DNA of 64,000 nt from Escherichia coli (GTDB lineage Bacteria > Pseudomonadota > Gammaproteobacteria > Enterobacterales > Enterobacteriaceae): assembly GCF_013122565.1 (NCBI RefSeq), contig NZ_CP053258.1; one strand, written 5' to 3'. This document shows, one piece after another, positions 18,228 through 59,653 of this stretch. The notes under the pieces were generated by a model. The model worked only from the letters and a program-made list of their open reading frames with translations. It had not been told where the DNA came from and did not search any database. How positions within the stretch are numbered: the first letter of the stretch is position 1; each line of letters starts with the position of its first letter. The position numbers and the translations under genes are program-made.

Positions 18228-18411
18228 TCACAACCCGAAGATGTTTCACTTCAGAGTTGCGAAAATTTGAGAGACTCACGAACAACATTCGTTGTTCAGT
18301 GTTTCAATTTTCAGCTTGATCCAGATTTTTAAAGAGCAAATATCTCAAACATCACCCGAAGATGAGTTTTGAGATATTGAGGTCGGCGACTTTCACTCAC
18401 AAACCAGCAAG

Positions 18412-32056: not shown

Positions 32057-32109
32057 GTTCTGCGCTGTTAACGCGTAATTTACATTCAACGCCCCGTTTG
32101 TGGGGGCTA

Positions 32110-32205
32110 ATTTCTTGTCGGAGTGCCTTAACTGGCTGAGACCGTTTATTCGGGATCCGCGGAACCTGATCAGGCTAATACCTGCGAAGGGAACAAGAGT
32201 TAATC
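32110..32205 (+). promoter_or_regulatory. TPP (thi-box) riboswitch in the thiC leader
   Basis: ctgagaccgtttattcgggatccgcggaacctgatcaggctaatacctgcgaagggaa contains the conserved thi-box core (CTGAGA...ACCTGATC.GG.TAATGCC.GCG.AGGGAA); boundaries approximate. Confidence 0.85.
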
Positions 32206-32286
32206 TGCTATCGCATCGCCTTTGCGGCGATCGTCTCTTGCTTCATCCGTCGTCTGACAAGCCACGTCCTTAACTTTTTGGAATGA

Positions 32287-37654: not shown

Positions 37655-37769
37655 GACGGAATGTAAGAACGTAAATTTATTCCGAGCCGCTACGGAAGAT
37701 GAAAAACGCAAGGTTGTTGAAAGCGTTGTGTTTTTTTATGGTAGTGCCGTCAGCAGGAATGTTGTCCAG

Positions 37770-37812
37770 GGCGAAAAGCTTCTTCCTCGTTTCGCCCTGC
37801 CTTTCTTAAAAA
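37770..37812 (+). terminator. Candidate intrinsic terminator of the thi operon
   Basis: cagggcgaaa-13 nt loop-tttcgccctg (10-bp stem) followed by cctttctt, about 120 nt after the thiH stop. Confidence 0.45.
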
Positions 37813-37879
37813 TTCCGTAATGCAAAGTCTGAAGCCATCGCCTGTTGAGCAATGAAAGAGATCTGATTGTAATAGAGTA

Positions 37880-38070
37880 AATACTCAACTATGATAGAGA
37901 CGAAAATAAGAACACATGTTCTCATCTTCCAGGATGCAGCAGACTGAAGAAATTCAGACATCCCGCAACCTGCGATTATCGCAAGGTCAAGGCAAAGTCC
38001 GGTAATGGCGTTCTGAATACCAGAGATAATTCTCTGGCGAAACCCACCTTAAGGTGGGTTTTGTTATTTT
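37880..38070 (+). ncRNA. Candidate small transcript (about 190 nt) between thiH and htrC, bounded by a sigma-70-like promoter and a canonical intrinsic terminator
   Basis: Promoter-like TTGAGC-17 bp-TGTAAT at 37845-37873; terminator hairpin aacccacc-ttaa-ggtgggtt at 38041-38060 followed by ttgttatttt. Transcript ends are predicted, not observed. Confidence 0.35.
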
Positions 38071-38603
38071 GAGGGCTGAGGAAGCTGCTTATTTCTCAAT
38101 AAGTTGTAGGCAATGGTGAAAAATTTCACTGATTTACCTTTCTGTTTTTCAGAAATGGGATAAGCGCTAGTTACATGCAAACGGAGTTTTTTCTTTTCCC
38201 TGAAAGCCCTGAACGCAACAAAGTAAAATGCCTTATCTCCTCCGTCTAAGTCCACCTCAATCACGGCATAGCTACCATACCCGGCATGAATAACGTTGCT
38301 TTCTGGCAGCGCCAAAATAGTTCTTTTTAAGTGTGTGCGCGCTAAGTTATAACGGTGCTGGCAGAAGGGACGAGATTCTTTAGGCGCGTGGTACATTAAC
38401 GATTGTTTTTCTTCGTTCGTCTGATGTTCATAATCTTTTGTGAAGCAGTGAAGAGAGTAGGTAACCCAAAAGCGATACTCTAAAGGCTCTTTGCCCTCAT
38501 GATGCTGAACGTAGACAGCCTGATGAGCATCAAGAAATGATAAATCACGAATATCACCATCCGGATGTCCAAAAGGTCGCCACTTTTCCACTTCCTGTTT
38601 CAT
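38064..38603 (-). CDS. htrC: Heat-shock / stationary-phase protein HtrC (YjaZ)
   Basis: 179-aa ORF at the conserved position between rpoC and thiH; identity by context and length. Confidence 0.7.
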   Translation of the reverse strand: MKQEVEKWRPFGHPDGDIRDLSFLDAHQAVYVQHHEGKEPLEYRFWVTYSLHCFTKDYEHQTNEEKQSLMYHAPKESRPFCQHRYNLARTHLKRTILALPESNVIHAGYGSYAVIEVDLDGGDKAFYFVAFRAFREKKKLRLHVTSAYPISEKQKGKSVKFFTIAYNLLRNKQLPQPSK

Positions 38604-38767
38604 TCTCGTTCCTTAAGAAAGTTACACAGGAATAGTATCGAATCCTTGCCGAGTTTGACTCAATTAGTTCAGTTAGTTTCAGGATATTAGTCATCTCTAC
38701 ATTGATTATGAGTATTCAGAAATTCCTTAAATATTCTGACAAATGCTCTTTCCCTAAACTACCCCCA

Positions 38768-47389: not shown

Positions 47390-47422
47390 GCGCAAAAAGG
47401 CTGGTGACCAAAAAGTCACCAG
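47390..47422 (-). terminator. rplL-rpoB intercistronic attenuator (partial terminator)
   Basis: Minus-strand ctggtgac-ttttt-ggtcaccag hairpin followed by a T-run, in the 286-bp rplL-rpoB spacer where the rpoBC attenuator is known to lie. Confidence 0.7.
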
Positions 47423-47463
47423 CCATCAGCCTGATTTCTCAGGCTGCAACCGGAAGGGTTGGC

Positions 47464-59460: not shown

Positions 59461-59653
59461 TCACAACCCGAAGATGTTTCTTACGATTCATCATCGTGTC
59501 GCGAAAATTTGAGAGACTCACGAACAACTTTCGTTGTTCAGTGTTTCAATTTTCAGCTTGATCCAGATTTTTAAAGAGCAAATATCTCAAACATCACCCG
59601 AAGATGAGTTTTGAGATATTAAGGCAGGTGACTTTCACTCACAAACCAGCAAG

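What the first reader, a model, noticed from the sequence alone, without database searches (positions are those of the whole stretch)
37655..38070. Candidate small RNA with its own promoter and intrinsic terminator between thiH and htrC
The 409-bp convergent spacer between thiH and htrC is larger than a terminator needs. On the plus strand it carries a sigma-70-like promoter (TTGAGC-17 bp-TGTAAT, 37845-37873) and, about 190 nt downstream, a textbook intrinsic terminator (aacccacc-ttaa-ggtgggtt plus ttgttatttt, 38041-38070) whose T-run overlaps the htrC stop codon on the opposite strand. A separate hairpin at 37770-37812 could end the thi operon upstream of it. The predicted transcript contains only a weak 18-codon ORF (37891-37947, MIETKIRTHVLIFQDAAD) with a poor ribosome-binding site, so a non-coding RNA convergent to htrC is the more likely reading. 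I vaguely recall an sRNA (possibly SroH) reported near this locus in K-12 but cannot confirm that from memory.
Basis: partly seen in the sequence, partly recalled or inferred. Interest (0 to 1): 0.45.

Follow-up and report, generated by a model that had tools for sequence, protein, structure and literature searches.

The report
Known sRNA SroH, paired with yjaZ
The candidate is the already-annotated E. coli small RNA SroH, whose function is unknown; comparison across genomes shows it is a highly structured RNA that moves between chromosomes, plasmids and phage-plasmids with its neighbour gene yjaZ, which suggests the two work as a pair.

Summary
The finding is real and already known. Window 37902-38062 (+) matches Rfam sroH (RF00372) over its full length at 201 bits against a gathering score of 80. 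It corresponds to ncRNA sroH (b4691) in K-12. TTGTAA-17-TATGAT (37867-37895) puts the start at G37902, the annotated 5' end, and is the promoter conserved in relatives. The 18-codon ORF starts inside that -10 element and is not conserved.

My preferred mechanism, an RNA-protein partner module, is inferred, not shown.

The parts
37902..38070 (+). sroH small RNA: annotated 161 nt, 37902-38062, with the U-rich tail running to about 38070
   Evidence: Rfam RF00372 models 1-161 at 201.1 bits, gathering score 80, E 1.8e-51. It is equivalent to b4691 at NC_000913.3 4190327-4190487. MFE -58.5 kcal/mol, z -5.57.
37867..37895 (+). Probable sigma-70 promoter of sroH: -35 TTGTAA (37867-37872), 17-bp spacer, -10 TATGAT (37890-37895). 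The start at G37902 follows 7 nt later.
   Evidence: Promoter scan. It is in register with the annotated 5' end. It is conserved in E69 and, as TTGCAA-17-TATTAT/TATAGT, in L003, L006 and L007. Use of this promoter is inferred; it was not measured here.
37845..37873 (+).
   Evidence: Sequence. It was not reported by the scan. Its -10 becomes TGTAAG in E69. Its -35 is not conserved in plasmid copies.
37930..38066 (+). Conserved structured core of the SroH family. P1 outer 37932-37936/37959-37963. Invariant internal loop CAGCAGA 37937-37943. P1 inner 37944-37948/37953-37957. Junction helix J 37964-37966/38008-38010. P2 37968-37975/37979-37987. P2b 37991-37993/37997-37999. Invariant linker UUCUGAAUA 38011-38019. 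P3 38020-38026/38031-38037.
   Evidence: Covariance model R1 matches 37930-38066. On 36 distinct sequences, 98.9% of cells pair, 22 of 38 pairs change on both sides, 0 of 500 shuffles reach this, and slid controls give 28-43% paired. RNAalifold result. P2 variation.
38038..38070 (+). Intrinsic terminator of sroH: stem 38038-38048 with 38053-38063, loop TTAA, then the U-rich tail. The tail overlaps the yjaZ stop codon (38064-38066).
   Evidence: inverted repeat I7. Three terminator pairs covary as AU<->GC/CG or CG<->UA. A PAP I study reports poly(A) tails at the 3' end of the SroH primary transcript.
38064..38603 (-). yjaZ (formerly htrC), 179 aa, the gene that travels with sroH
38654..38680 (-). 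SigmaE-type promoter candidate for yjaZ (GAAACT-N16-TCAAA)
   Evidence: The only match in the 64-kb window, 0.12 expected by chance. A genomic SELEX study lists an RpoE holoenzyme binding peak in the rpoC/yjaZ spacer.
37820..38761 (.). The sroH-yjaZ cassette: about 940 bp, present or absent as a unit between the thi operon and rpoC
   Evidence: In LY180, 24 bp stand in its place. 3728 of 5420 matching E. coli genomes cover at least 80% of the query; every sampled partial match stops at query position 217-219, i.e. window ~37816-37818. No terminal repeats were found.
37701..37799 (+). Both are candidate thi-operon terminators.
   Evidence: Fold and inverted repeat I9. Both lie in the flank that is also present in cassette-free LY180.
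37891..37947 (+).
   Evidence: Its ATG lies within the -10 hexamer, upstream of the start at 37902. The leader is not conserved. The other internal ORF (ATG at 37934, 23 codons) is broken by indels in group B relatives.

Best explanation
Shown: the feature is sroH, a known, independently transcribed small RNA of about 161 nt with an intrinsic terminator.

Strongly supported by comparison: sroH is one half of a mobile two-gene module, sroH plus yjaZ. The module is gained or lost as a unit in E. coli and is carried on plasmids and phage-plasmids. The RNA is a compact seven-helix molecule with invariant loop and junction sequences, and it evolves much more slowly than YjaZ.

Inferred: SroH works as the RNA partner of the YjaZ protein, not as an antisense RNA and not mainly as a seed-pairing regulator. 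Most likely it binds YjaZ and restrains it, or is acted on by it. YjaZ is a RelE-like, putative RNase-type protein expressed from a sigmaE-type promoter. The pair would then be a stress or addiction-type module resembling an RNA-protein (type III-like) toxin-antitoxin system.

My probabilities: identity as SroH 0.98; functional coupling to YjaZ about 0.7; direct RNA-protein antagonism about 0.3.
For: Identity. Expression in the literature: TSS signals in E. coli and K. pneumoniae; strong stationary-phase induction seen on Northern blots; polyadenylated primary transcript.

Module:
- The cassette is present or absent as a unit.
- An Rfam sroH hit above the gathering score lies directly beside a yjaZ homologue in all 10 loci first fetched, whether chromosome, IncF plasmid, ColE1 plasmid or phage-plasmid.
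- Nearly all of 71 metagenomic instances with enough flanking DNA have a convergent yjaZ at 46-100% identity.
- Remote YjaZ relatives at 41-43% identity again have the RNA 4-14 nt from the stop codon.
- In two Vibrio plasmids the RNA lies upstream on the same strand, about 22-25 nt before the start codon.

Constraint: 99 core positions are 81-96% identical where YjaZ is 47-63% identical. The only cores with damaged conserved blocks are 2 of 4 copies whose yjaZ was replaced by relBE, against 0 of 30 linked copies.

Against: - No experiment links SroH to YjaZ.
- sroH deletion mutants are viable (cited), which argues against a potent toxin held in check only by SroH.
- The RNA survives without yjaZ in some loci. 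One lineage sits upstream of a superoxide dismutase gene with an intact core, and four plasmid loci carry relBE in the yjaZ slot.
- YjaZ relatives at about 32% identity or less show no recognisable RNA.
- SroH is enriched in Hfq PAR-CLIP and bound kbl mRNA in vitro, which fits an ordinary trans-acting sRNA.
- The metagenomic loci were selected with an exact 25-nt pattern in P1, which inflates apparent conservation there.
- The covariation alignment was fitted to the proposed structure.
Confidence: 0.6

Rival explanations
1. SroH is an ordinary trans-acting, base-pairing sRNA, possibly assisted by Hfq. It regulates host mRNAs in stationary phase or under envelope stress. Its neighbour yjaZ is only a passenger in the same mobile fragment.
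For: Hfq PAR-CLIP enrichment. In-vitro binding to kbl mRNA. CRP-linked stationary-phase induction. Envelope-stress sensitivity of the deletion mutant. Intact orphan copies without yjaZ. An invariant single-stranded linker, UUCUGAAUA, that could act as a seed.
Against: Tight adjacency to yjaZ is kept across chromosomes, plasmids and phage-plasmids and across a change of gene orientation. Almost the whole RNA is constrained, structure included, unlike typical seed-plus-terminator sRNAs. Overexpression gave no biofilm or motility phenotype. SroH is not an established Hfq client. Hosts as different as Vibrio, Serratia and Escherichia would have to share the target.
Confidence: 0.22
2. SroH controls yjaZ in cis. 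Convergent transcription and a shared bidirectional terminator cause transcriptional interference, or antisense pairing with a yjaZ 3' UTR that reads through the terminator.
For: The two genes converge with 1 nt between the RNA's annotated end and the yjaZ stop codon. The terminator stem has an A-tract on one side and a U-tract on the other, so it could act in both directions.
Against: In Vibrio plasmids the RNA is upstream on the same strand, yet the core is conserved. Cis-antisense pairing needs no sequence or structure conservation, whereas the core is 81-96% identical with covarying helices. The RNA persists next to relBE or an SOD gene. On the yjaZ strand only three U follow the hairpin.
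Confidence: 0.08
3. SroH regulates yjaZ in trans by pairing with its 5' UTR or ribosome-binding site, as in type I systems with separately encoded antitoxin RNAs.
For: Co-inheritance of the two genes.
Against: Duplex predictions between SroH and yjaZ positions -100 to +30 are no better than shuffled controls, with z from -1.3 to +2.2 in 8 distinct modules. The 10-nt match between the SroH linker and a site upstream of yjaZ is at chance level, lies upstream of the putative promoter, and is not conserved in E69.
Confidence: 0.04
4. The region encodes a small protein (the 18-codon ORF, or the internal 23/29-codon ORF), or the RNA is merely a processed 3' fragment of thiH read-through.
For: The ORFs exist. 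thiH is upstream on the same strand.
Against: The 18-codon ORF starts upstream of the transcript start. The internal ORF hits a stop after 5 codons in group B relatives. Every homologue, including plasmid copies with no thiH, has its own sigma-70 promoter. Two hairpins separate thiH from sroH.
Confidence: 0.03

Closest known systems
SroH (sroH, b4691; Rfam RF00372), from the 2003 E. coli 'RNomics' screen (attribution from my own knowledge; I could not open that paper)
   Same: It is the same gene. The match covers the full Rfam model, sits at the same position between thiH and yjaZ, and has the same ends.
   Different: Nothing differs in the window. What I add: Rfam annotates only the terminator hairpin, whereas seven helices are supported by covariation. 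The papers I read call its function unknown and do not mention the link to yjaZ or to plasmids.
Type III toxin-antitoxin systems (ToxIN, CptIN, TenpIN): an RNA antitoxin that binds a protein endoribonuclease toxin
   Same: A small mobile module made of one structured RNA gene and one protein gene. It is found on plasmids and phage-related elements. In Vibrio the order is promoter, RNA, terminator, gene, with no room for a second promoter. The protein has a putative RNase-like fold.
Type I toxin-antitoxin pairs with convergent, 3'-overlapping antitoxin RNAs (Bacillus TxpA/RatA, BsrG/SR4)
   Same: Convergent RNA and protein genes with abutting 3' ends.
   Different: Those toxins are small hydrophobic peptides and the RNAs overlap the toxin mRNA extensively. 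Here the protein is a 179-aa globular protein and the overlap is limited to the stop codon. The Vibrio arrangement is not antisense at all.
RelE/ParE superfamily toxins of type II systems
Stationary-phase, CRP-dependent Hfq sRNAs such as CyaR
   Same: Sigma-70 promoter, Rho-independent terminator, reported CRP dependence and stationary-phase induction, Hfq cross-linking.
   Different: SroH is almost entirely base-paired. It is conserved along its whole length rather than in one seed. It is horizontally mobile with a partner gene.

Membership tests
Rfam sroH (RF00372) | Full-length match to the covariance model at or above the gathering score of 80 bits | tested here: met
   201.1 bits, model positions 1-161, E 1.8e-51.
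Rfam sroH (RF00372) | Same genomic position as the founding K-12 gene: between thiH and yjaZ, convergent to yjaZ | tested here: met
   NC_000913.3 annotates ncRNA sroH at 4190327-4190487, between yjaZ and thiH. The window is 99.6% identical to K-12 over this region.
Independently transcribed sRNA gene | Own promoter in register with the mapped 5' end, conserved in relatives | tested here: met
   TTGTAA-17-TATGAT ends 7 nt before G37902. A sigma-70 promoter is visible by eye in each of the 11 copies aligned (at one of two distances from the core) and in both Vibrio copies. TSS signals are published.
Independently transcribed sRNA gene | A discrete transcript detected in cells | not testable with these tools
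   Literature only: Northern blot and stationary-phase induction; full-length and processed forms, poly(A) at the 3' end.
Type III toxin-antitoxin system | RNA antitoxin built of tandem repeats that the toxin processes | tested here: not met
   No tandem repeat in sroH. The RNA is a single seven-helix unit.
Type III toxin-antitoxin system | Toxin belongs to the ToxN/AbiQ, CptN or TenpN endoribonuclease families | tested here: not met
   No family in the Pfam-A library scanned matched, and there was no PADLOC match. Structural neighbours are RelE-like toxins and tRNases.
Type III toxin-antitoxin system | RNA gene upstream of the toxin gene on the same strand, separated by a terminator | tested here: not met
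   Convergent in the window and in all enterobacterial copies. This layout is met only in the two Vibrio plasmids.
Type III toxin-antitoxin system | The protein is toxic and is neutralised by direct binding of the RNA | not testable with these tools
   No experimental data were found. Viability of sroH deletions argues against strong toxicity at chromosomal expression levels.
Type I toxin-antitoxin system | Small hydrophobic toxin peptide whose mRNA is base-paired by the antitoxin RNA | tested here: not met
   YjaZ is a 179-aa globular alpha/beta protein. Overlap is limited to the stop codon. There is no complementarity to the yjaZ 5' region beyond shuffled controls.
Hfq-dependent trans-acting sRNA | Rho-independent terminator with a U-tail, plus a conserved single-stranded seed | tested here: inconclusive
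   The terminator is present. The invariant unpaired stretches CAGCAGA and UUCUGAAUA could be seeds or protein contacts. Hfq association rests on one PAR-CLIP data set whose authors say SroH is not an established Hfq target.
RelE/ParE toxin superfamily (applied to YjaZ) | Significant structural or profile similarity to the RelE/ParE fold | tested here: inconclusive

The most novel reading that the evidence does not exclude
SroH and YjaZ form a previously unrecognised kind of mobile RNA-protein module. It pairs a non-repetitive, seven-helix structured RNA with a RelE-like putative RNase. The two partners can be arranged convergently or in tandem. The module would act as a toxin-antitoxin, plasmid-addiction or stress/defence unit, with the RNA directly binding or being processed by the protein. 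That would give SroH, which has had no assigned function since its discovery, a concrete role and would define a new class of RNA-antitoxin system.
Probability: 0.27. Interest if true: 0.72.

Novelty: already known. Interest (0 to 1): 0.33.

Why it matters
As submitted, the finding rediscovers an annotated gene, so its main value is as a check: the first-stage reader can recognise a genuine sRNA from sequence alone.

The added value lies in the context. The papers I read still describe SroH's function as unknown. Its constant companionship with yjaZ on mobile elements, its strong structural and sequence constraint, and the Vibrio rearrangement turn "unknown sRNA" into a specific hypothesis that standard experiments can test. 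yjaZ is itself an uncharacterised gene whose heat-shock label was retracted.

If the pair proves to be a toxin-antitoxin or defence-like module, it would also explain why the cassette is missing from about a third of E. coli genomes and why tiny ColE1 plasmids carry it as their only cargo.

Tried and rejected
- The genome-contig scan with the single YjaZ protein reached only one close relative, so my one scan of that collection yielded little.
- The phage collection has no DNA or protein match to the cassette. Of 16 viral contigs sharing an exact 16-mer, only 2 carry sroH.
- PADLOC, PHROGs and the available Pfam-A library gave nothing for YjaZ. A profile search of PDB sequences gave only noise.
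- Alignment A5 contained two sequences I had edited by hand to equalise lengths. I discarded it and rebuilt the seed from unmodified sequences (A6).
- MAFFT mis-aligned the variable hairpin P2, so RNAalifold on A2 paired ACC with the wrong GGU. I replaced this with a model-based alignment.
- My first P2 parser crashed. The second skipped the five cores of the small-plasmid (L004-like) group and mis-set the boundary in six others, so I use it only qualitatively.
- SroH versus yjaZ 5'-region pairing is no better than shuffles.
- The 10-nt inverted match between the SroH linker and a site upstream of yjaZ is at chance level and not conserved.
- The cassette has no terminal direct or inverted repeats.
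- A 102-aa ORF overlapping a distant yjaZ-like gene in L110/L111 looked like a type II antitoxin position, but its translation is low-complexity and unconvincing.
- I could not open Vogel et al. 2003 under the PMC id I tried.
- Weak sub-threshold Rfam hits in the spacer (rnk leader, Hammerhead II, RsmY, P9) all sit on the terminator hairpin and are far below their gathering scores.

Full report
WHAT IS THERE. The window is Escherichia coli-like; over the thiH-yjaZ spacer it is 99.6% identical to K-12. A scan of the whole window against Rfam gives a full-length match to sroH (RF00372) at 37902-38062 on the + strand. The score is 201.1 bits against a gathering score of 80, with E = 1.8e-51 in the local search. 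The curated K-12 MG1655 record annotates ncRNA sroH (b4691) at the equivalent place: one base from the yjaZ stop codon and 247 bp from thiH. PGAP-annotated genomes list no feature here, which is why the spacer looks empty in most records.

CHECK OF THE OBSERVATION. All described features are in the sequence: the 409-bp spacer (37655-38063), TTGAGC-17-TGTAAT at 37845-37873, the terminator at 38040-38070 whose T-run covers the yjaZ stop codon (38064-38066), a perfect 10-bp hairpin at 37767-37799, and the 18-codon ORF at 37891-37947. A promoter-like hexamer pair is not significant on its own: 3 were found against 1.9 expected. The simple terminator scan found none. I think the stem extends to 11-13 pairs and absorbs part of the T-run, but I did not test that. 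The RNA as a whole is far beyond chance, and it folds with z = -5.6 against shuffles.

CORRECTION OF THE PROMOTER. The annotated 5' end is G37902. The scan reports TTGTAA (37867-37872), a 17-bp spacer and TATGAT (37890-37895), which places the start exactly 7 nt downstream. Phage-plasmid and Enterobacter copies have TTGCAA-17-TATTAT or TATAGT in the same register. The RNA is thus about 161-169 nt. The ATG of the 18-codon ORF sits inside the -10 hexamer, outside the transcript. An internal 23-codon ORF (ATG at 37934) hits a stop after 5 codons in many relatives. Two hairpins on the thi side (37701-37736, ending in a U7 run, and 37767-37799) lie in DNA shared with strains that lack sroH, so they belong to the thi operon's end.

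WHAT THE LITERATURE SAYS.
- SroH's function is described as unknown, and its deletion mutant is reported to be sensitive to envelope stress.
- Full-length and processed forms accumulate without poly(A) polymerase, and poly(A) tails were found at the 3' end of the primary transcript.
- SroH bound kbl mRNA in a single in-vitro test.
- Overexpression gave no biofilm or motility phenotype.
- Its abundance rises sharply in stationary phase, in a study of CRP-regulated sRNAs.
- It is enriched in Hfq PAR-CLIP, but the authors say it is not an established Hfq target.
- TSS signals were recorded in both E. coli and K. pneumoniae, where it is the least conserved of 34 shared sRNAs.
- It was already known to be missing from phylogroups B2 and D and from some Shigella.
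- yjaZ's original heat-shock designation (htrC) has been retracted.
- None of the passages I read mentions a functional link between SroH and YjaZ.

THE CASSETTE. Of 5420 complete E. coli genomes with a match, only 3728 cover at least 80% of the query. Every sampled partial match stops at window position ~37816-37818. In LY180, thiH is followed directly by rpoC, and about 940 bp (window ~37820-38761, containing sroH and yjaZ) are replaced by 24 bp. I found no terminal repeats. The same pair occurs elsewhere:
- on a 2462-bp ColE1 plasmid, as its only cargo;
- on IncF and other plasmids of Serratia, Enterobacter and Edwardsiella, and by BLAST on Klebsiella and Citrobacter plasmids, often beside a tyrosine recombinase;
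- between tail and baseplate genes of phage-plasmids, including viral contigs, one of which also carries the P1-type C4 RNA.
An independent survey lists htrC as a recurrent ColE1 cargo gene. All ten loci first fetched have an Rfam sroH hit above the gathering score directly beside the yjaZ homologue.

HOW TIGHT IS THE LINK? A pattern scan of metagenomes returned 71 loci. Nearly every instance with enough flanking DNA has a convergent yjaZ at 46-100% protein identity. The exceptions are informative:
- Four plasmid loci have a RelE/RelB-type pair in the yjaZ slot.
- Two have an IS transposase inserted in yjaZ.
- One chromosomal lineage has the RNA about 400 nt upstream of a superoxide dismutase gene.
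So the RNA can exist alone. However, the only RNA cores with substitutions in otherwise invariant blocks are 2 of the 4 relBE-associated orphans, against 0 of 30 linked cores (Fisher p = 0.011). That test is post hoc and ignores phylogeny.

In the other direction, YjaZ-family proteins occur on 577 plasmids. The family is small: 208 clusters at 50% identity among 1.84 billion proteins. Relatives at 41-43% identity again have the RNA 4-14 nt beyond the stop codon, scoring 78-80 bits with my model. Weak hits in the expected position occur at about 33-35% identity. Branches at about 32% or below show none.

The most telling case is Vibrio. In two plasmids the RNA has its own TTGACT promoter and lies upstream of the yjaZ-like gene on the same strand. 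Only about 22-25 nt separate its terminator from the start codon. A linkage that survives a change of orientation cannot depend on antisense overlap.

THE RNA ITSELF. Rfam annotates only the terminator hairpin. From 35 distinct cores I derived seven helices: P1 outer and inner, a three-pair junction helix, P2, P2b, P3 and the terminator. I built a covariance model from seven unmodified sequences. On 36 distinct sequences aligned to it:
- 98.9% of cells form standard pairs;
- 22 of 38 pairs change on both sides;
- every helix has at least one such pair;
- none of 500 shuffles reaches any observed measure;
- sliding the 3' partners by 1-3 columns drops pairing to 28-43%.
Caveats: the alignment is fitted to the model, and the metagenomic sequences were selected by an exact pattern in P1. 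Unpaired CAGCAGA (37937-37943), the CCGGUAA junction and UUCUGAAUA (38011-38019) are invariant or nearly so. Across 99 non-loop positions the RNA is 81-96% identical where the neighbouring protein is 47-63% identical. In E69, sroH differs at 3 of 161 positions while yjaZ has many substitutions.

MECHANISM. Shown: identity, transcription-unit anatomy, structure, mobility and linkage. Inferred: SroH functions with YjaZ. I rate functional coupling at about 0.7 and direct RNA-protein antagonism, in the manner of a type III toxin-antitoxin pair, at about 0.3.

Cis-antisense control is disfavoured by the Vibrio arrangement and by the strong sequence constraint. Trans pairing to the yjaZ 5' region is disfavoured by the lack of complementarity beyond shuffled controls. 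An independent trans-acting sRNA remains a serious rival at about 0.2, because of the Hfq cross-linking, the kbl EMSA and the intact orphan copies.

Membership in the known type III families is not supported. The RNA has no tandem repeats, the protein is not ToxN-like, and the genes converge in enterobacteria. Type I is excluded by the nature of the protein.

VERDICT. The finding is real, correctly interpreted, and already known, so its novelty is low. The mobile sroH-yjaZ module, the seven-helix structure and the orientation flip are not mentioned in any of the papers I read. They make the function of this sRNA, still listed as unknown, directly testable, and that is the reason for a moderate rather than minimal interest score.

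Noticed in passing
window 37820-38761: The whole sroH-yjaZ segment is a presence/absence polymorphism. About 31% of complete E. coli genomes (for example LY180) go straight from the thi-side flank to the rpoC terminator, with 24 unrelated bases in its place. There are no terminal repeats.
   Followed up: yes
L035, L061, L064, L073 (metagenomic plasmid contigs): An sroH-like gene with its promoter is followed by a convergent RelE/RelB-type toxin-antitoxin pair in exactly the slot normally held by yjaZ, next to the same tyrosine recombinase. Two of these four RNA copies carry substitutions at otherwise invariant positions.
   Followed up: partly
L069, L074, L087: A chromosomal sroH-like RNA with a large insertion in hairpin P2 and no obvious sigma-70 promoter lies about 400 nt upstream of a superoxide dismutase gene, with no yjaZ nearby. 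The host organism was not identified.
   Followed up: no
L013 1260-1436 and L014 1284-1440: In two Vibrio plasmids the SroH-family RNA is upstream of the yjaZ-like gene on the same strand, and its terminator ends about 22-25 nt before the start codon. The gene must therefore be expressed by terminator read-through or from a promoter inside the RNA gene.
   Followed up: partly
window 38654-38680 (-): A sigmaE-type promoter motif (GAAACT-N16-TCAAA) lies about 50 nt upstream of the yjaZ start codon. It matches a published RpoE SELEX peak in the rpoC-yjaZ spacer.
   Followed up: partly
L110 896-1204 and L111 538-846: A called 102-aa ORF overlaps the start of a distant yjaZ-like gene (32% identity) by 4 nt, the layout of a two-protein toxin-antitoxin operon. 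Its translation looks low-complexity and may not be a real protein. No SroH-like RNA is detectable there.
   Followed up: partly
L065 3361-3392 and 5823-5854: A 6.9-kb metagenomic contig assembled at about 3984x coverage carries two copies of the sroH-yjaZ module 2462 bp apart. That spacing equals the length of the small ColE1 plasmid pJX12-2, so the contig is probably a concatenated assembly of a small high-copy plasmid.
   Followed up: no
L015 2058-2195 (-) and L107 1406-1517 (-): Weak covariance-model hits (23 and 16 bits) lie convergent to distant yjaZ-like genes (33-35% identity), abutting the gene end in L015 and about 47 nt beyond it in L107. L015 is a P. aeruginosa plasmid and L107 a metagenomic contig. 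The L015 candidate keeps the junction motifs and helices but lacks the UUCUGAAUA linker.
   Followed up: partly
window 47398-47459 (-), 18235-18334 (-) and 59468-59576 (-), 32109-32209 (+): Other Rfam hits above gathering score in the window: 'Pseudomonas sRNA P26', two copies of StyR-44 beside the 23S rRNA genes, and a TPP riboswitch about 5.4 kb upstream of thiH (presumably the thi operon leader). I did not examine any of them.
   Followed up: no
Look-up of encoding contigs output for L105-L113: The precomputed annotations assign these proteins to Pfam PF27200 'YjaZ'. The Pfam-A library available to profile_search returned nothing for YjaZ, so the two resources appear to be different releases.
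   Followed up: no
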